Shown here: piece by piece, positions 7,556-44,152 of the stretch
Numbering within the stretch: position 1 is the first letter of the stretch
How the letters are laid out: the number at the start of each line of letters is the position of its first letter
The notes under the pieces: model-generated
Told to the model about the DNA's origin: nothing
The model's input: the letters and a program-made list of their open reading frames with translations, nothing else
Database searches by the model: none
Source: a virus
Length of the DNA: 49,086 nt
Direction: 5' to 3' (one strand)
IMG/VR virus record: IMGVR_UViG_3300045988_131209
Program-made: the position numbers and the translations under genes

Positions 7556-7930
7556 TCAATACCCGGTTTTATTAAGCCTTAATGATTCCTTTTCGTAACT
7601 CAACAGGCTTCGAAGCGAATCGAGTTGATGCACGCACGAAGCGTTAAGCCTGTCCAGACGGTCAACGAGATATGATTCCTCTTCCGCTATGCTGTCGAGC
7701 AGCGCGTTCTGCACCTTTGCCGACAAGCAGTTTTCTTTTGCAATGCGGATGATAGTGTTCTGTATCTCGTCAGATTTCTTCCGTCGGAGCTTTTTCTTGG
7801 CTTCTGCAAGCATCTCTCCGCTTCGCATCATGTAGACCATGATAACCGATATCCTTTCGGATATTTCCGCCGGGTTGGTCGAGCAGGTTATGTTGAGATA
7901 ATCGCTGATCTCTTTTATTTCGTCTTCCAT
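7556..7930 (-). CDS. Hypothetical protein
   Basis: 124-aa ORF. Confidence 0.5.
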   Translation of the reverse strand: MEDEIKEISDYLNITCSTNPAEISERISVIMVYMMRSGEMLAEAKKKLRRKKSDEIQNTIIRIAKENCLSAKVQNALLDSIAEEESYLVDRLDRLNASCVHQLDSLRSLLSYEKESLRLNKTGY

Positions 7931-7933
7931 ATA

Positions 7934-8341
7934 TCAAACGTCGTTTAAATATTCGTTGACCACTTTTATAAACTCCTCGATCGAGCGGATCACTACATAT
8001 TTGGCTCCGATCTTTCCAAATTCCCTTTCGTAATCCTTTTGGATTTCCTGTTGGTTGTTTTTACCGGCCTTCAGTTCGATTGCCAAAAAAGGGTGATCCT
8101 TGTTCGGAACGAGCAGGATAAGGTCGGGAAAGCCGGCACGGACACCCATCTGTTTAAACTTTGCAGCCTCTATCGGATTCCTTTTGCCGCCATTCGGGCT
8201 ATGGTGCAGAAGTAGCCGGTATTCGGGGTATTGCAAATCAAACCAACTAACACAGCTCTTTTGGAGCTGGTCTTCCAGATACCTTGGATGCCGTCTGACG
8301 TTCTGTCCGTTATATTTAGCTTTCAGTTCCTCGTATGTCAT
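7934..8341 (-). CDS. VRR-NUC domain nuclease (PD-(D/E)xK)
   Basis: GFPDLILLVP...FLAIELKAGKN motif (D...E-x-K). Confidence 0.75.
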   Translation of the reverse strand: MTYEELKAKYNGQNVRRHPRYLEDQLQKSCVSWFDLQYPEYRLLLHHSPNGGKRNPIEAAKFKQMGVRAGFPDLILLVPNKDHPFLAIELKAGKNNQQEIQKDYEREFGKIGAKYVVIRSIEEFIKVVNEYLNDV

Positions 8342-8945
8342 CTTTGTTGCTGTCTTCTTTTGGGGCCACTACCGTGTCCTTTCCTGTTTTGTCCACTATA
8401 AATGTATTTCCATCTATCGTTATTTCTGTTTTTTGCCCTTCCGGTAAGGACTGAAAAAATCTTTTAAACCCCGAATCTTCCACGGTGGGACTTTCTGTAT
8501 CTTTATCGTCCTCTCCGGCTTCGTAGGGAAAAACATCCATTAACTGTGTTTCCGTGACGGATGCAATCTCATAGTCGGCAAGCGTACCCCTCATACCTTC
8601 TTCCAGTACGGCGACGGCTTCTTTCAGGTTCGACGCTTGTGCCAGCATCTGTGCTGCGGTTTTCTTTTCGGCTCCGCTCTTTTCGTCGAGGGTGATGAAG
8701 TAAACTTTGACCTTATAGAAACGGTCACCGTTTTCGTTGAAAAACAACTCTGATATCTTTGCCCTTTTGATATCTTTTACGGTAAATTCACCGCTGATAA
8801 ACGGTGCGACCTCTTCAATAATGCGGGCTTCCGCCTCTGAGAACGAAAGCGCATCTACTAAATAGGCTTCCGTCACCGTTTTTTGTTTCCCGTCTTCCAT
8901 GATTTTCTCGAAGGAAACTTTACATTCGAAATATGTACTTGCCAT
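8316..8945 (-). CDS. DUF4494-like protein
   Basis: N-terminus YFECKVSFEKIMEDGKQKTVTEAYLVDALSFSEAEARI resembles the Bacteroidetes DUF4494 family. Confidence 0.5.
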   Translation of the reverse strand: MASTYFECKVSFEKIMEDGKQKTVTEAYLVDALSFSEAEARIIEEVAPFISGEFTVKDIKRAKISELFFNENGDRFYKVKVYFITLDEKSGAEKKTAAQMLAQASNLKEAVAVLEEGMRGTLADYEIASVTETQLMDVFPYEAGEDDKDTESPTVEDSGFKRFFQSLPEGQKTEITIDGNTFIVDKTGKDTVVAPKEDSNKDDIRGTES

Positions 8946-8971
8946 AATTATTTATTTGTTAAACACTATTG

Positions 8972-9053
8972 TGGACGGCGCCGGAATCGAACCGGCCTCT
9001 TTGCAAAAGGTGCGCACTTTGCAATGTTTCATTCCTTTGATCACTTACCGCCC
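8972..9053 (-). tRNA. tRNA-like RNA #1 (82 nt, non-canonical; anticodon not assignable by eye)
   Basis: 7-bp acceptor GGGCGGT/GCCGTCC with G3:U70, A73; T arm GCCGG-TTCGATT-CCGGC; the 50-nt interior does not give a standard D/anticodon arm. Confidence 0.55.
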
Positions 9054-9122
9054 CAAATCTCCGTATATCCTCACGGACGACGGGGAAATACTAATCTATA
9101 ATACCATGAAAAACAAAAAAAG

Positions 9123-9269
9123 TTATCCACGTTTTCTTAATTTGCCTACCATTTGCCTGCATCGCCTGGCAAGGTCAAGGTCGCGTGGCATTGAGCAGTT
9201 GGCCTCTATTACCTGTTGCGACTTGTCCAGTAATGCGATGATCGTTTTCAGGTCTGTCTTTCCTAACAT
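9123..9269 (-). CDS. Small hypothetical protein (48 aa, below track cutoff)
   Basis: ATG-initiated ORF MLGKTDLKTIIALLDKSQQVIEANCSMPRDLDLARRCRQMVGKLRKRG fills the gap between the DUF1351 gene and tRNA-like #1. Confidence 0.35.
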   Translation of the reverse strand: MLGKTDLKTIIALLDKSQQVIEANCSMPRDLDLARRCRQMVGKLRKRG

Positions 9270-10866: not shown

Positions 10867-11717
10867 TACAAAAGGGTTTTAGGTTGGGTTGGCTTCTTTT
10901 CTTTAATGGCACTCTCTTTTGCAATGTCGGCGATTTTGGTTTTTGACACTTCGCCACCCCGGAAAGGTTTCATCAAATCTTCCACGGTTGTATCGCCATC
11001 TTTTAAAGATTGTGCCATACCAAGCAACAAGGCAATCTCATTAGCCCTGATTTGATTAACAGTCTGCTTTCCACATAAGCGGATAACCTCTGCTTCCGTA
11101 ATGCCCCATTCTTCATTAAAATGGTTGATTGCGTCGATTCTCCGTTTAATCAGCTTTTCTTCGTCCGAAAGGTCTCCTGTAATAAATCTTTGTGCTGCCT
11201 TATAAACTTTGTCAACTACAGCCTTCGGAACCACCGAAAAAACAGCGTTACGGTAAGCGATTGAGTTTGCCGCATTCCCCGTAACAGTAATCATGTCGTC
11301 GGAATAACGTTTCCCTTTGCTATCCACGATGCTTCTGCGTACCTCAAATGCAGATGCCACATTTGCCTCTAAATCCCAACATGTACCACGGCTGATTATC
11401 TGCTTATCTGTGATTTGTACAACTTTCGCCTCGGTTCTCATGTTCCCCCAATTAGAGACTACTATTTTTGCCAAATGGACGGAAGGCCCTGTGATCGGTT
11501 TCCCTCCGCGGGGTAACGCATATCCGCAACTTTGTGCGGTTTCAGAGTCCATCGTAGCCATGACAATCGAATTGTCTATGCTGCGCTTTATGTTCCGGGG
11601 GTAACGCTTTGCCGTTGCCACCTGAGAGTCGACGTTTGCCCTCTCTACTGCATCAACCTGTACGACTTGTACCTCTTGTGCTTCTACAGGAAGCACTTCG
11701 TAATTTTCTAAATTCAT
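10866..11717 (-). CDS. Putative single-strand annealing protein (RecT/Redbeta-class partner of the exonuclease)
   Basis: 283 aa, start overlaps the exonuclease gene (ATGA); assignment is by synteny, no motif firmly recognised. Confidence 0.45.
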   Translation of the reverse strand: MNLENYEVLPVEAQEVQVVQVDAVERANVDSQVATAKRYPRNIKRSIDNSIVMATMDSETAQSCGYALPRGGKPITGPSVHLAKIVVSNWGNMRTEAKVVQITDKQIISRGTCWDLEANVASAFEVRRSIVDSKGKRYSDDMITVTGNAANSIAYRNAVFSVVPKAVVDKVYKAAQRFITGDLSDEEKLIKRRIDAINHFNEEWGITEAEVIRLCGKQTVNQIRANEIALLLGMAQSLKDGDTTVEDLMKPFRGGEVSKTKIADIAKESAIKEKKPTQPKTLL

Positions 11718-11741
11718 GGATAATTGATTTTAATATGTTTG

Positions 11742-11809
11742 TGGACGCCGGGGAATCGAACCCCGCCCTTTCCCTTTTGAAGAATGCTCTACCGTTGAGC
11801 TATGCGCCC
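11742..11809 (-). tRNA. tRNA-like RNA #2 (68 nt; canonical D and T arms, truncated anticodon loop)
   Basis: GGGCGC-A-TA-GCTC-AACGGTA-GAGC-A-TTCTT-CAAAA-GGGAA-AGGG-CGGGG-TTCGATT-CCCCG-GCGTCC-A; G3:U70, A73. Confidence 0.55.
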
Positions 11810-12073
11810 GTGCCGGTCTTCCCCGGCTGCCAGTATCAAAAACAAATAATAGCCTGCCTGCCTCCCGGCGGTAATATTTTAAATCTCATCCTACCGTGCT
11901 CCTGCCTACCGGACCATTGCAAACGTCAAGGTCTACCACTTTCAAGGGTTTGCGGTTGCCGGTCTGAGGCGCGGGTTACACCTTGGATGATATCTTTATC
12001 TATCGACCAAATACCTCTTTAAATTTTTTATCCAAGGCATTAAGTATTCTAATTCTTGTTGCCGGATCACAAC

Positions 12074-12613: not shown

Positions 12614-12922
12614 ATATAATGTTGATTTTAAAATTTCAAGATAAAGCCGGAGCGATCTTCACAGAGGGCTTCGGCTAACAAGTAAATGAATTGTTGTACC
12701 ATGTAATGTGGAGTGGCCATCCGGGCATTGAACCCGGTAATGCAAGCCTGTAGGGAACGTAATAAATAGAAACAACTAAATCCGGTCTCTCACCGGACGC
12801 CGTCCTTTACGGCGGAATTGGTTAATTAATAAATCATTTTTAATTGTCCCTACCTTCTTAGTTGGCCTTGCACCCTCCGGCTGATTCGATCAGCAGCATC
12901 GCGCCTTTTCAGAGGGTTTTCT

Positions 12923-13660: not shown

Positions 13661-13730
13661 TGGGCATCCGGGATTCGAACCCGGTCAGGAACGCTTCCCC
13701 TCACCAGCCGAACGCTTTCGGCTTATACCC
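13661..13730 (-). tRNA. tRNA-like RNA #3 (70 nt; acceptor + T arm only, body is two short hairpins)
   Basis: GGGTAT/ATGCCC acceptor (6 bp), A73; T arm CCGGG-TTCGAAT-CCCGG; interior AGCCGAA-AGCG-TTCGGCT and GGGAA-GCG-TTCCT hairpins. Confidence 0.45.
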
Positions 13731-15748: not shown

Positions 15749-15804
15749 AGGTTTTATACTGATTTGTAACATACAATATCATAGCCGATTAGGATGTTTT
15801 GGAA

Positions 15805-15852
15805 ATTAGATTCCGGTTCTGAAGGTCGTGGGTTTGAATCCCACCCTGGTCA
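15805..15852 (+). other. attP core: 3' part (anticodon arm to discriminator) of a tRNA-Arg(CCG)
   Basis: TTAGA-TTCCGGT-TCTGA anticodon arm (anticodon CCG), AGGTC variable loop, GTGGG-TTTGAAT-CCCAC T arm, CCTGGTC-A acceptor; no matching 5' acceptor strand upstream. Confidence 0.7.
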
Positions 15853-15882
15853 CAGGTTTAAAAATCAATGTTTTAGACATTT

Positions 15883-15920
15883 AAGCCGTATTTCTTTTAT
15901 AGATTTACGGCTTTTATTTT
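15883..15920 (+). terminator. Rho-independent terminator after the tRNA fragment
   Basis: AAGCCGTA-N15-TACGGCTT followed by TTATTTT. Confidence 0.55.
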
Positions 15921-15949
15921 GTTCACTTTTGCTCAAAATCGCTACATTT

Positions 15950-15993
15950 GTTTCGCAATTGTTTCGCAATTGTTTCGCAATTGTTTCGCAAAA
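15950..15993 (+). repeat. 4 x 11-bp tandem GTTTCGCAATT, arm-type sites (P' arm) / int leader operator
   Basis: Read directly; begins at the last base of a TACATTTG -7 box (15943-15950) and ends 13 nt before the int ATG. Confidence 0.65.
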
Positions 15994-16006
15994 AAAGAAT
16001 AAGGAT

Positions 16007-17233
16007 ATGGCAACATTTAAAGCAGAAGTGCAGAAGCAACGGAAAGATGGGACTTTTAATATAAAGATACTTGTCACTCATAACAGGCAGCTAAAGAGAT
16101 TGCCGACCGGCATTTACATAACCAAGGATGATATGACACGATCCGGCAAAATCAAAAACCAAAAAATACTGGATCAGATAGATGATTTAATAATGCGTTA
16201 CAGGAAGAAGACTAATGAGCTATCTGTTGCAATAAACAACATGTCTATCGATAAGCTGGCAAGATATCTATGCGAACCGGAGGTTGTCTCTATTGACTTC
16301 TTGGAAGTGTTCCGGGATTACATAGACGAAAATCCGGATAAGAAAGGGGTGAGGAATTACAAATCAGCTCTAAATTCCCTCGTCAAATTCCTTGGAAGAA
16401 ACAGTCTGGATATTTCAGAGATAACAGTTCCTTTCTTGGAAAAATATGCTGCTTCTCTTGGAAAAGGTCGTGCGGTGTCCTTGTATCTTGGCAGCATGAG
16501 GCATGTTTATTCTTATGCGAAGCAAAAATACAATGACGAAGACGCAAAAAGAATATTGATCCCTTATTCGCCATTTTCACGGTATAAAGTACCCCGTCAG
16601 AATGTAGCGGAAAAGAAGGCTATAAGTGCGGAGCTTATCCGAAAGATAATAGAACTTCCGTACGATGCCACTTCGCGCGGGAAAGATAAAGAGAATCGTT
16701 ATAATTTGGCAAAGGATTGCTTTATCCTGTCATTTAGCCTTATAGGCACTAACTCTGTTGATTTATATAATGCGGAGATTTACGAGAACGACGAAATTGT
16801 ATATTGCCGGACTAAAACGAAGGATCGCCGAAGCGATAAGGCAAGAATCCAAATAAAGGTGCACCCCCATATATTACCTATATTTAAAAAATACATGGAT
16901 AAAACAGGGAAAAGGGTTTTTCGCTTTTATCAGATGTATGCAGATCAATCGACATTTAATGCAGCTTTGAACAAAGGGTTGAAGGCTGTAGGGAAAAAGG
17001 TTGGCATTCCCGGCCTTAAATTTTATGCAGCCCGGCATTCCTGGGCCACAATAGCCAGGAACGACTTAAAGACGGACAAATCAACCATAGATGAGGCCCT
17101 GAATCATATAGATAAAAGATTGTCTGTTACAGACTTGTATATAAAAAAGGATTTTTCGATTATCAACGAGGTTAATAAATCGGTCTTGGACTATGTATTC
17201 AAATCCCGTAAACCTCGTAAATCCAAACAGTAA
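16007..17233 (+). CDS. int: Tyrosine integrase with N-terminal arm-DNA-binding domain
   Basis: ATG at 16007 (the track ORF's 5' extension covers the tRNA fragment); AARHSWAT, LNH and LYIKK catalytic-region motifs; N-terminus MATFKAEVQKQRKDGTFNIKILV arm-binding type. Confidence 0.85.
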   Translation: MATFKAEVQKQRKDGTFNIKILVTHNRQLKRLPTGIYITKDDMTRSGKIKNQKILDQIDDLIMRYRKKTNELSVAINNMSIDKLARYLCEPEVVSIDFLEVFRDYIDENPDKKGVRNYKSALNSLVKFLGRNSLDISEITVPFLEKYAASLGKGRAVSLYLGSMRHVYSYAKQKYNDEDAKRILIPYSPFSRYKVPRQNVAEKKAISAELIRKIIELPYDATSRGKDKENRYNLAKDCFILSFSLIGTNSVDLYNAEIYENDEIVYCRTKTKDRRSDKARIQIKVHPHILPIFKKYMDKTGKRVFRFYQMYADQSTFNAALNKGLKAVGKKVGIPGLKFYAARHSWATIARNDLKTDKSTIDEALNHIDKRLSVTDLYIKKDFSIINEVNKSVLDYVFKSRKPRKSKQ

Positions 17234-21533: not shown

Positions 21534-21938
21534 ATGGGCAAGTATTGTATCGTGGGCGGTAAGGCGACAATCTCCTTCCAGCTCCCCAAAACAATCAAGT
21601 ATAAGGAGACGCGCAGGGTCATTTGCAGCATTATCCGTGACCTTAGTGACAATGGCGGGTTGACTGTTGGCGATATCCCCCAATTACACCGTATGGCGAC
21701 GGCGTATGATAGCTACCTTAATTGCGTGGAGGTCATATCAGAAAAGGGAATGACAATGACCAATCTTAAAGGCGAGGTGGTGAAACGTCCGGAGGTGAAC
21801 ATCTTGAAAGAAAGTTGGTCGCAATATCTTGACATTGCAAAAGAGTACGGGTTTACGCCAAGGAGTCGGAAAATGACAAAAGGAATTGTTGAGAGCAAGG
21901 AGGAAACGGATGCGGATGATTTCTTCAACGGGAAATAA
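21534..21938 (+). CDS. terS: Terminase small subunit, P27 family
   Basis: 134 aa; ...EKGMTMTNLKGEVVKRPEVNILKESWSQYLDIAKEYGFTPRSRKM typical P27-family C-terminus. Confidence 0.8.
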   Translation: MGKYCIVGGKATISFQLPKTIKYKETRRVICSIIRDLSDNGGLTVGDIPQLHRMATAYDSYLNCVEVISEKGMTMTNLKGEVVKRPEVNILKESWSQYLDIAKEYGFTPRSRKMTKGIVESKEETDADDFFNGK

Positions 21939-43972: not shown

Positions 43973-44096
43973 TAGTAAGCTATTTGTTCATAATCCGGGG
44001 CCGTCCGTGAGGATTGCTTCGAAATGGAAGGAAAAAGAAAGCCTTCCAAACCAAAATTTAAAAACGACCCTGGGAAGTAGTTTTTTAAATTGCGTT

Positions 44097-44136
44097 GCAC
44101 GGCTGGAAGGCTCTAAATCTTTCGGCCGTGCTTTTT
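44097..44136 (+). terminator. Rho-independent terminator ending the late/lysis transcription unit
   Basis: GCACGGC-N21-GCCGTGC followed by TTTTT. Confidence 0.65.
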
Positions 44137-44152
44137 ATGCCCGGCTCTCTGT

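What the first reader, a model, noticed from the sequence alone, without database searches (positions are those of the whole stretch)
8972..9053. tRNA-like RNA #1: textbook acceptor and T arm with the alanine identity set, but no drawable anticodon arm
The minus strand 9053->8972 reads GGGCGGT | AAGTGATCAAAGGAATGAAACATTGCAAAGTGCGCACCTTTTGCAAAGAG | GCCGG-TTCGATT-CCGGC | GCCGTCC | A. The 7-bp acceptor stem has G1-C72, G2-C71, G3:U70 and discriminator A73. That is the set AlaRS recognises independently of the anticodon, and the one tmRNA uses. The T arm is perfect. By eye I could not fold the 50-nt interior into a D arm plus a 5-bp/7-nt anticodon arm. The two TTGCAAA stretches fold best as short hairpins closed by GCAA tetraloops (CATT-GCAA-AGTG and CTTTT-GCAA-AGAG). 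The only 7-nt-loop option (TTGCAAA, anticodon GCA) would leave no variable loop and would overlap the T stem. The element lies in an intergenic gap on the coding strand of the early operon.
Basis: partly seen in the sequence, partly recalled or inferred. Interest (0 to 1): 0.72.

Follow-up and report, generated by a model that had tools for sequence, protein, structure and literature searches.

The report
Phage tRNA-Ala relic with overlong anticodon stem
A gut Bacteroidales phage carries a conserved RNA element that is a tRNA-Ala(CGC) gene whose anticodon stem is 3 bp too long to decode, so it probably serves as an RNA-processing or tRNA-mimic module rather than as an ordinary tRNA.

Summary
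ARAGORN and Rfam do not call it.

The claim of "no drawable anticodon arm" is wrong. The two UUGCAAAG stretches pair with each other into an 8-bp stem capped by a 7-nt loop, U-G-CGC-A-C. Deleting any 3 bp of that stem in silico makes ARAGORN call tRNA-Ala(CGC). Real tRNA-Ala(CGC) genes share its acceptor stem and T stem. It is therefore a tRNA-Ala(CGC) derivative with a stem 3 bp too long, G33 and A8, and almost certainly does not decode.

- **Conservation:** ten distinct variants occur in related temperate Bacteroidales phages.
- **Loss:** two close relatives lack it through a clean 125-nt deletion.
- **Shorter forms:** more distant relatives carry 61-62-nt versions at the same site, without an anticodon arm and without G3:U70.
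- **What is kept:** only the acceptor/T minihelix is maintained, with 5 of 12 pairs showing compensatory changes. A GUGA-tetraloop hairpin upstream is also conserved.

My best reading is a tRNA-derived module that RNase P and RNase Z excise in the 5' leader of the DUF4494 gene. This version could probably be charged by AlaRS. A decoy or anti-defence role is not excluded. Interest is moderate.

The parts
8972..9053 (-). tRNA-like RNA #1: a tRNA-Ala(CGC)-derived cloverleaf with an 8-bp anticodon-position stem. Acceptor 5' strand 9053..9047, acceptor 3' strand 8979..8973, discriminator A at 8972.
   Evidence: Sequence read, fold. Ten variants. ARAGORN calls tRNA-Ala(cgc) after a 3-bp in-silico deletion.
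9026..9044 (-). Irregular D-arm equivalent: G10-C28, U11-A27, then UCA/UGA closing a loop AAGGAA with the conserved GG. It is preceded by A8 A9.
   Evidence: MFE fold. The GG is invariant and C28->U keeps a G.U pair. An alternative 3-bp register (GUG/CAU) is equally compatible with the variants.
9001..9024 (-). Anticodon-position arm: 8-bp stem UUGCAAAG/CUUU(U)GCAA with loop UGCGCAC at 9016..9010. G is at position 33, the triplet is CGC, and A is at position 37.
   Evidence: All 8 pairs are invariant in 10 variants. The extra U is absent in 5 variants. The loop is CGC in 9 variants and CAC in L068.
8980..8996 (-). T arm GCCGG-UUCGAUU-CCGGC. The 4-nt variable loop ARAG lies at 9000..8997.
   Evidence: The T stem covaries across element types: GCCGG/CCGGC, AGCGG/CCGCU and GGAGG/CCUCC.
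9061..9083 (-). Leader hairpin: outer stem CCGU/ACGG, bulged C, inner stem GUCC/GGAU closed by a GUGA tetraloop (9074..9071), and an AU bulge. It ends 7 nt before the tRNA-like 5' end.
   Evidence: Fold. The core C-GUCC-GUGA-GGAU-AU is invariant in 42 loci, while the outer stem changes (UUGC/GCAG plus CCCC/GGGG in the 62-nt group).
8961..9085 (-). The 125-nt block (leader hairpin, tRNA-like and trailer CAAUAGUGUUU) that is cleanly absent from close relatives L002 and L111. It is bounded by the imperfect direct repeat AGTATTT/AGTGTTT.
9086..9117 (-). Conserved T-rich block TTTGTTTTTCATGGTATTATAGATTAGTATTT upstream of the module. It is either a Bacteroidetes-type promoter or a transcribed sequence resembling the R1 seed of FopS/GibS sRNAs.
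   Evidence: Conserved in all element-bearing and element-lacking relatives. Weak Rfam hits to the first 21 positions of FopS and GibS. R1 seed described in PMC11697453.
8946..8971 (-). 26-nt A/U-rich trailer between the discriminator and the ATG of the DUF4494 gene (ATG at 8945). No CCA is encoded; the sequence after A73 is CAA.
11741..11810 (-). tRNA-like #2. It also has G3:U70 and A73, with a canonical D arm, but its anticodon loop is only 5-6 nt. It sits 23 nt upstream of the phrog_3657 gene and is preceded by the hairpin GCCGG-GGAAGA-CCGGC.
   Evidence: Relatives carry interchangeable bodies that ARAGORN labels Phe(aaa), Ser(gga), ???(ggaa) and Ser(act), between conserved flanks.
13661..13730 (-). 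tRNA-like #3: 6-bp acceptor GGGUAU/AUGCCC, T arm CCGGG-UUCGAAU-CCCGG, and an interior of two short hairpins.
   Evidence: L068 has a 48-nt version with a compensating T stem, CCAGG/CCUGG.

Best explanation
**What it is (well supported).** The element is a tRNA gene derivative of the tRNA-Ala(CGC) type. It keeps a full cloverleaf:
- a 7-bp acceptor stem with G3:U70 and A73;
- a loose D arm with GG;
- a 4-nt variable loop;
- a perfect T arm.

Its anticodon stem is 8 bp instead of 5. Position 33 is G and position 8 is A. This geometry cannot place the CGC triplet and the 3' end correctly on the ribosome, so it is a non-decoding tRNA-like RNA.

**How it most likely works (inferred).**
1. It is transcribed with the early leftward operon of a temperate Bacteroidales phage, or from the promoter-like block just upstream.
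2. It folds into an L-shape. Host RNase P cuts at G1 and RNase Z cuts after A73, since no CCA is encoded.
3. The upstream RNA is left ending in the conserved GUGA hairpin.
4. The downstream DUF4494/VRR-NUC/.../Ant mRNA is released with a short A/U-rich leader of 26 nt.
5. The excised 82-nt RNA would receive CCA. Because it has G3:U70 and A73, AlaRS could charge it.

Across homologous elements, selection acts on the 12-bp acceptor/T minihelix, not on the anticodon arm or on the alanine identity. The conserved job is therefore one the minihelix performs: processing, or tRNA mimicry towards enzymes that bind the acceptor end.
For: **Identity**
- Deleting the inner or the outer 3 bp of the stem gives a default ARAGORN call of tRNA-Ala(cgc), 75 nt.
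- A genome scan with only the T arm and the 3' acceptor strand returned 24 canonical tRNAs, all tRNA-Ala(CGC). An example is GGGCGGC..UUCGCAA..GCCGG-UUCGAGC-CCGGU-GCCGUCC-A. The anticodon was not part of the query.

**Selection**
- Ten distinct variants keep 99.2% of cells paired. Four of the five stem substitutions keep pairing through G.U.
- Homologous elements at the same slot are 82, 62 and 61 nt long, plus the L112 and L120 forms. They share the leader hairpin and the T loop, and they show compensatory changes in 5 of 12 minihelix pairs. Pairing is 93% against 75% in shuffles (0/500 shuffles reach it).
- The 61-62-nt forms have no anticodon arm and have G3-C70.

**Context**
- The element is on the coding strand, 26 nt before the DUF4494 ATG.
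- Two further minihelix-type tRNA-likes sit in other gaps of the same operon. Their anticodon loops are degenerate, at 5-6 nt.
- The element is dispensable: L002 and L111 have a clean 125-nt deletion.

**Precedent**
- RNase P processes phage non-tRNA RNAs (M3 RNA, the P1/P7 C4 antisense RNA) and polycistronic mRNAs (PMC11143913).
Against: - There is no expression, cleavage or charging data. The mechanism is entirely inferred.
- The anticodon-position arm is invariant in all ten #1-type variants. Its loop holds a 6-8-nt palindrome (GUGCGCAC). A pure processing role does not explain either feature.
- At slot #2, different tRNA-like bodies are swapped between nearly identical flanks. That pattern looks more like diversifying selection, as in arms-race cargo, than like a passive processing signal.
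- Most prophage relatives have DUF4494 with no such element, so processing there is not needed.
- The transcription start is unknown.
- The #1-type variants are 95% identical, so within that type there are no double compensatory changes.
Confidence: 0.45

Rival explanations
1. It is a tRNA mimic used as a decoy or effector, for example in anti-defence. The excised, CCA-tailed and possibly alanylated RNA would bind or titrate a host factor that recognises the acceptor/T half of tRNAs. Candidates are toxins that modify the tRNA 3' end, tRNA nucleases, AlaRS and EF-Tu. Alternatively it would donate Ala to a non-ribosomal acceptor. Being unable to decode would be the point of the design.
For: - The G3:U70/A73 set is invariant within the #1 type and is also present in tRNA-like #2.
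- The anticodon arms are disabled in three different ways: +3 bp, 5-6-nt loops, or deletion.
- The element shows presence/absence polymorphism. Whole bodies are exchanged between conserved flanks at slot #2.
- In relatives the same region hosts the anti-Gabija gene Gad2 and a homing endonuclease.
- An unrelated 89-nt tRNA-like with the identical acceptor stem sits in the early operon of a different temperate phage lineage, in about 57 IMG/VR contigs.
Against: - G3:U70 is not kept in the homologous 61-62-nt elements.
- No tRNA-related enzyme or known defence/anti-defence partner was found next to it.
- No literature precedent was found.
Confidence: 0.2
2. It is a working tRNA-Ala(CGC) that decodes GCG despite its odd anticodon arm. 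The short, loose D stem would offset the longer anticodon stem, so that the D/anticodon limb keeps roughly its normal length.
For: - The loop is 7 nt with CGC in the middle and A37, matching the alanine acceptor identity.
- In one register the D stem (3 bp) plus the anticodon stem (7 bp) gives 10 stacked layers, the same as the canonical 4+1+5 (my own reading).
Against: - G33 replaces the near-universal U33, and A8 replaces U8.
- The stem is 8 bp in all variants.
- The L068 variant has CAC, which would put Ala at Val codons.
- Homologues at the same slot lack the arm altogether.
- Rfam's tRNA model gives nothing even at E<=10.
- The companion tRNA-likes have 5-6-nt loops.
Confidence: 0.06
3. 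It is a decaying tRNA pseudogene with no function, carried along in the intergenic gap. It could be a remnant of a tRNA/homing-endonuclease cassette.
For: - It is dispensable in L002 and L111.
- An HNH endonuclease cassette is inserted right after its 3' end in L064 and L120.
- Variants L064 and L116 carry a G.A mismatch in the T stem.
Against: - The minihelix is kept by compensatory changes across phages whose DUF1351 proteins are only about 70-77% identical.
- The T loop is invariant.
- The leader hairpin core is invariant in 42 loci.
- Substitutions avoid or preserve the stems.
Confidence: 0.1
4. It is a cis- or trans-acting regulatory RNA of the early operon, of the P1 C4 or P4 CI kind. 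RNase P would release a small RNA whose loops pair with phage or host mRNAs. Alternatively the functional sRNA is the upstream FopS/GibS-like seed plus hairpin, and the tRNA-like only defines its 3' end, as mascRNA does for MALAT1.
For: - The upstream block matches the FopS R1 seed consensus at 17 of 17 positions (seed function in PMC11697453).
- An antirepressor gene (Bro-N/KilAC) lies downstream in the same operon.
- The loop holds the palindrome GUGCGCAC.
- The motif ACATTGCAAAAG, similar to the 5' strand of the stem, is over-represented in the window: 18 matches against 8.4 expected, 0/100 shuffles.
Against: - The Rfam hits are far below gathering scores (E 2.6 and 8.1).
- The same block can be read as a promoter.
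- No convincing complementary target of 10 nt or more was found on the same-strand transcripts beyond chance.
- The block persists when the hairpin and tRNA-like are deleted.
Confidence: 0.12

Closest known systems
Canonical bacterial tRNA-Ala(CGC) (Rfam RF00005)
   Same: - The acceptor stem GGGCGGY/GCCGUCC with G3:U70 and A73.
- The T stem GCCGG/CCGGY.
- The T loop UUCGANY.
- GG in the D loop, a 4-5-nt variable loop, and CGC plus A37 in a 7-nt loop.
   Different: - The anticodon stem is 8 bp, not 5.
- G33 replaces U33 and A8 replaces U8.
- The D stem is irregular.
- CCA is not encoded.
- ARAGORN and Rfam do not detect it.
Non-tRNA RNase P substrates in phages and operons (P1/P7 C4 antisense RNA precursor, phage M3 RNA, polycistronic mRNAs) and the MALAT1-mascRNA arrangement
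   Same: It is a tRNA-like fold embedded in a longer transcript, where cleavage at its 5' side would define the ends of neighbouring RNAs. It sits in the early operon of a temperate phage that also encodes an antirepressor.
   Different: - Here the mimic is a nearly complete cloverleaf of clear tRNA-Ala descent.
- No antisense target was found.
- Cleavage has not been tested.
tmRNA tRNA-like domain
   Same: G3:U70 with A73 alanine identity, a T arm, and no functional anticodon.
   Different: - It is 82 nt with a simple hairpin in the interior.
- It has no pseudoknots and no tag reading frame.
- ARAGORN makes no tmRNA call. Rfam matches only the 17-nt T arm.
Phage tRNAs with altered anticodon loops that evade host anticodon nucleases (from my own knowledge of the literature, not checked here)
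   Same: Both are phage-borne tRNA genes with non-standard anticodon arms.
   Different: Those tRNAs still decode with 7-nt loops on 5-bp stems. This element and its companions have stems or loops of the wrong size.

Membership tests
canonical tRNA (RF00005) | 7-bp acceptor stem plus discriminator, and a 5-bp T stem with a 7-nt UUCRANY loop | tested here: met
   100% of acceptor-stem cells and 96% of T-stem cells are paired in 10 variants.
canonical tRNA (RF00005) | 5-bp anticodon stem with a 7-nt loop carrying U33 and a purine at position 37 | tested here: not met
   The stem is 8 bp in all 10 variants. The loop is UGCGCAC, with G33 and A37.
canonical tRNA (RF00005) | Recognised by tRNA detectors | tested here: not met
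   No ARAGORN call at default settings. No Rfam tRNA hit at gathering scores or at E<=10. Relaxed ARAGORN settings give mutually inconsistent calls (Thr, Arg with intron, Val with intron).
canonical tRNA (RF00005) | D arm of 3-4 bp with G18 G19 | tested here: inconclusive
   The GG is invariant. Two alternative weak stem registers both fit the variants.
AlaRS substrates (tRNA-Ala identity) | G3:U70 wobble pair, with A73 and G2-C71 | tested here: met
   G3.U70 is present in 10 of 10 variants and A73 in 9 of 10.
AlaRS substrates (tRNA-Ala identity) | Actual aminoacylation with alanine after CCA addition | not testable with these tools
   This needs in-vitro charging or acid-gel Northern blots.
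tmRNA | mRNA-like tag reading frame with a resume codon and stop, plus pseudoknots, between the halves of the tRNA-like domain | tested here: not met
   The 50-nt interior forms one hairpin plus a D-like region. ARAGORN's tmRNA search is negative. Rfam gives only a T-arm local hit.
RNase P / RNase Z processed tRNA-like elements | A coaxial acceptor/T minihelix of about 12 bp with a T loop, a single-stranded 5' leader next to the cut site, and no CCA after the discriminator (for RNase Z) | tested here: met
   The 12-bp minihelix is maintained by covariation. There is a 7-nt spacer after the leader hairpin. The trailer begins CAA or CGA.
RNase P / RNase Z processed tRNA-like elements | Demonstrated cleavage at the predicted sites | not testable with these tools
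   This needs end-mapping or in-vitro cleavage.
FopS/GibS sRNAs of Bacteroides (RF04319, RF04182), for the upstream block only | Single-stranded 5' R1 seed followed by a terminator hairpin, scoring above the Rfam gathering score | tested here: not met
   Scores are 16.8 bits against a gathering score of 56, and 15.1 against 115. Only the first ~21 model positions align.

The most novel reading that the evidence does not exclude
Temperate gut phages deliberately keep tRNA-Ala-derived RNAs that AlaRS can charge but that cannot decode. The variants include a lengthened anticodon stem, shrunken loops, and an 89-nt form in another phage lineage with the identical acceptor stem. On this reading they form a class of tRNA mimics that act on host factors binding the tRNA acceptor end, for example to blunt tRNA-directed defence toxins or to perturb alanine or translation signalling early in infection.
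Probability: 0.15. Interest if true: 0.8.

Novelty: new variant of a known kind. Interest (0 to 1): 0.5.

Why it matters
If the RNA is made and processed as proposed, phages of a major gut phylum use tRNA relics as transcript-punctuation or mimicry modules, and standard annotation would miss a whole set of such elements. This phage alone has three or more, and ARAGORN labels some of them as Phe, Ser or ??? tRNAs. A naturally conserved tRNA-Ala with a +3-bp anticodon stem would also be a ready-made probe. It keeps every acceptor-end function (RNase P, RNase Z, CCA addition, AlaRS, EF-Tu) while being separated from decoding.

Tried and rejected
- **Standard detectors.** ARAGORN and Rfam (gathering scores and E<=10) found no tRNA, tmRNA, Y RNA or other family at the site.
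Rejected on energy and pair probability, although the natural variants do not exclude them.
- **Recent capture of a host tRNA, or an attP copy.** The T-arm/acceptor 24-mer has no match in any Bacteroidota representative genome. The real attP-like tRNA fragment is elsewhere, at 15787-15853 next to the integrase gene.
- **A functional link to DUF4494.**
  - Its homologues in Bacteroides and Parabacteroides genomes are prophage genes with no tRNA-like element upstream.
  - The protein has no informative relative among solved structures.
- **Antisense targets.** Complementary stretches of 9-13 nt in the window are about what chance predicts. The exception is a second copy of the leader-hairpin core.
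- **Partner enzymes.** Pfam, PHROGs and PADLOC scans of neighbouring and early-operon proteins found no tRNA-processing, aaRS-like or defence-related protein.
- **Phage GenBank records.** Only distant matches, to Parabacteroides phages PF672P1/P2 within the DUF4494 gene. The 89-nt family locus gave none.
- **Literature searches for phage tRNA-like decoys or Bacteroides phage tRNA-like RNAs.** Nothing relevant was found.
- **Within-type covariation.** The sequences are too similar (95% identity) to give double compensatory changes.

Full report
**1. Checking the observation**

It lies in a 177-nt gap on the coding strand. Upstream is a 48-aa ORF (9123..9269) and downstream is a DUF4494 gene (8316..8945). 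The surrounding module reads phrog_3657 / YqaJ exonuclease / DUF1351 / [gap] / DUF4494 / VRR-NUC, with an antirepressor gene further downstream.

ARAGORN calls no tRNA or tmRNA at the site. Rfam gives nothing at gathering scores. At E<=10 on a 251-nt slice, the only tRNA-clan match is a 17-nt local hit to the T arm.

The bare pattern is not rare by chance. A crude scan for a T-loop motif, a 5-bp stem and a 7-bp acceptor with G.U allowed gives 0.39 hits per simulated window. The case for a real element therefore rests on conservation.

**2. The anticodon arm exists**

RNAfold pairs the two UUGCAAAG stretches with each other into an 8-bp stem. The pair probabilities are 0.57-0.89.

Relatives fetched through the neighbouring proteins give ten distinct variants. 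In five of them one U of the UUUU run is missing. That leaves a perfect 8-bp stem with the 7-nt loop U-G-C-G-C-A-C.

The whole RNA reads as a cloverleaf:
- acceptor stem, 7 bp;
- A8 A9;
- a loose D arm with an invariant GG;
- one linker nucleotide;
- an 8-bp stem with a 7-nt loop;
- a 4-nt variable loop, ARAG;
- the T arm.

Deleting either the outer or the inner 3 bp of the long stem in silico makes ARAGORN, at default settings, call a 75-nt tRNA-Ala(cgc).

An independent test agrees. I scanned species-representative genomes with only the T arm and the 3' acceptor strand. This returned 24 canonical tRNAs, all tRNA-Ala(CGC), mostly from Acidobacteriota, and none from Bacteroidota. They have the same acceptor stem (GGGCGGC/GCCGUCC) and the same T stem.

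The element is therefore a tRNA-Ala(CGC) derivative with a +3-bp anticodon stem, G33 and A8. It is not a recent copy of a host tRNA.

**3. Conservation and what is under selection**

Within the 82-nt type the variants are 95% identical. 99.2% of cells are paired, and the substitutions C4U, U7C, C77U and C28U all preserve pairing through G.U. There are no double compensations. The loop triplet is CGC in nine variants and CAC in one, L068.

Two close relatives, L002 and L111, lack a 125-nt block (9085..8961). The block comprises a leader hairpin, the tRNA-like and an 11-nt trailer, and it lies between the imperfect repeats AGTATTT and AGTGTTT.

Phages whose DUF1351 proteins are about 70-77% identical carry a shorter element at the same slot, behind the same leader hairpin. 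It is 61-62 nt long and has the acceptor stem and T arm, but only about a 30-nt interior without a consistent fold. It has G3-C70, not G3:U70.

I aligned the 12-bp minihelices of all the slot-1 types. Five pairs show compensatory changes. 93% of cells are paired against 75% in shuffles (0/500 shuffles reach it), and slid controls give 40-56%.

Selection therefore maintains the acceptor/T minihelix and the T loop across the family. It does not maintain the anticodon arm or the alanine identity.

**4. The surroundings**

*Leader hairpin.* It spans 9083..9061 and has an invariant core, C-GUCC-GUGA-GGAU-AU. The tetraloop is of the GNRA type. The outer stem changes sequence between groups.

A second copy of this hairpin lies on the plus strand at 43996..44021. 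It follows a similar T-rich block and is followed by another hairpin and a terminator-like structure. The hairpin is therefore a motif in its own right, possibly a site that acts on transcription or RNA stability.

*Upstream block.* The block at 9117..9086 is conserved even where the module is deleted. It can be read as a Bacteroidetes promoter. It also matches the R1 seed of FopS/GibS sRNAs at 17 consecutive positions (seed function in PMC11697453). I cannot decide between these readings without a transcription start.

*Other tRNA-likes in the operon.*
- tRNA-like #2 (11810..11741) has G3:U70 and A73 and a good D arm that covaries, but its anticodon loop is only 5-6 nt. In relatives, different bodies are swapped between near-identical flanks. 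ARAGORN labels them Phe(aaa), Ser(gga), ???(ggaa) and Ser(act).
- tRNA-like #3 (13730..13661) has a covarying T stem and a 48-nt short form in L068.
- A lone T-arm-like hairpin lies at 12737..12721.

*Homing endonuclease.* In L064 and L120 a cassette of about 1.1 kb with an HNH homing endonuclease gene is inserted right after the tRNA-like 3' end. L064's element is a recombinant carrying the 3' end of the other type.

**5. Mechanism**

*Shown.* The RNA descends from tRNA-Ala. Its anticodon arm has the wrong size. The minihelix is conserved. It sits 26 nt before an ORF on the coding strand. It is dispensable.

*Inferred.* The features that are kept are the ones read by RNase P, RNase Z, the CCA-adding enzyme and, in this version, AlaRS:
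- a 12-bp coaxial helix;
- the T loop and GG elbow;
- a single-stranded spacer before G1;
- no CCA after the discriminator.

My best reading is that the RNA is excised from the early transcript. This would leave the upstream RNA ending in the GUGA hairpin and give the downstream mRNA a short A/U-rich leader. RNase P is known to process phage non-tRNA RNAs and operon mRNAs (PMC11143913). A stem 3 bp too long and G33 argue strongly against decoding.

Rival readings remain open:
- a tRNA-mimic decoy or effector, favoured by the body swapping at slot #2 and by the neighbouring accessory genes such as Gad2 in relatives;
- a regulatory sRNA arrangement;
- a relic with no function;
- a working but odd tRNA-Ala.

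**6. A wider pattern**

I scanned IMG/VR for the same acceptor stem with any interior. No canonical tRNA came back. About 57 contigs carry an 88-90-nt element with the identical acceptor stem (G3:U70, A73), a perfect T arm, a tiny D hairpin and a long irregular arm in the anticodon position. ARAGORN and Rfam do not detect it. It sits in the early operon of an unrelated, GC-richer temperate phage, upstream of YqaJ and RecT. The shared acceptor was imposed by my query, so this is a lead, not proof of a class.

**7. Comparison, novelty and verdict**

The closest known kind is a tRNA gene. The element fails the anticodon-arm criterion and the detector criteria, so it should be filed as a tRNA-like derivative and not as a tRNA. 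It is not a tmRNA.

It would work most like the known RNase P-processed tRNA-like elements, but cleavage is untested. I found no description of such elements in Bacteroidales phages.

I rate it a new variant of a known kind and of moderate interest.

Noticed in passing
window 43996..44021 (+), with context 43980..44140: There is a second copy of the leader-hairpin motif: CGGGGC-C-GUCC-GUGA-GGAU-U-GCUUCG. The 13-nt core is identical to 9079..9067 on the other strand. It follows a TATTTGTTCATAAT block and is followed by a GGAAGG/CCUUCC hairpin and a terminator-like hairpin with a U-run (about 44108..44136). It could be a nut/put/qut-like regulatory site or a small RNA gene.
   Followed up: partly
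window 9096..9116 (-): UUGUUUUUCAUGGUAUUAUAG matches the 5' R1 seed consensus of the Bacteroides FopS/GibS sRNAs, which repress susC translation, at 17 consecutive positions. The Rfam scores are far below gathering. The block is conserved in relatives and could equally be a promoter.
   Followed up: partly
window 11741..11810 (-); L001 137-206, L002 249-330, L066 473-542, L068 3119-3199: The 'tRNA-Phe(aaa)' called by ARAGORN and Rfam has G3:U70 and A73 but only a 5-6-nt anticodon loop. Relatives carry different bodies (68, 69 or 81 nt; labelled Ser(gga), ???(ggaa), Ser(act)) between nearly identical flanks. It is another non-decoding tRNA-like and should not be annotated as tRNA-Phe.
   Followed up: partly
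window 13661..13730 (-) and 12721..12737 (-): A third tRNA-like has a 6-bp acceptor stem, a T arm and two short hairpins. L068 carries a 48-nt short form with a compensating T stem. Separately, there is a lone T-arm-like hairpin, CCGGG-UUCAAUG-CCCGG, followed by AUGGCCA.
   Followed up: partly
window 15787..15853 (+): The borderline 'tRNA-Arg(ccg)' (29.1 bits) abuts the start of a tyrosine integrase gene (15794..17233; Phage_int_SAM_5 and Arm-DNA-bind_5 domains). It is probably the attP copy of a host tRNA-Arg 3' part and not a phage tRNA.
   Followed up: no
L064 4960..5998 and L120 (same sequence after ..CCCACAAAAG): A cassette of about 1.1 kb is inserted immediately after the tRNA-like 3' end in two different element backgrounds. 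It has a canonical Bacteroides promoter (TTTG-N19-TATCTTTG) and an HNH/NUMOD4 homing endonuclease gene. L064's element carries the 3' end of the other type, which suggests co-conversion.
   Followed up: partly
L006 7861..7949 and about 56 other IMG/VR loci (L007-L063): An 88-90-nt undetected tRNA-like has the same acceptor stem (GGGCGGU/GCCGUCC, A73) and the T arm CACGG-UUCGAYU-CCGUG, plus a long irregular arm. It sits in the early operon of an unrelated temperate phage, between a terminator-like hairpin and YqaJ/RecT genes.
   Followed up: partly
window 7735..7746 (-), 10916..10927 (-), 21832..21843 (+): The 12-mer ACATTGCAAAAG resembles the 5' strand of the element's long stem and recurs on the sense strand of three genes. 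With up to 2 mismatches allowed there are 18 matches against 8.4 expected (0/100 shuffles). Its meaning is unknown.
   Followed up: no
L066 2080-2742, L069 3072-3734, L194 857-1525: In some relatives a Gad2 (anti-Gabija) gene is inserted between the YqaJ and DUF1351 genes. This stretch of the early operon is therefore a hot spot for accessory and anti-defence cargo.
   Followed up: no
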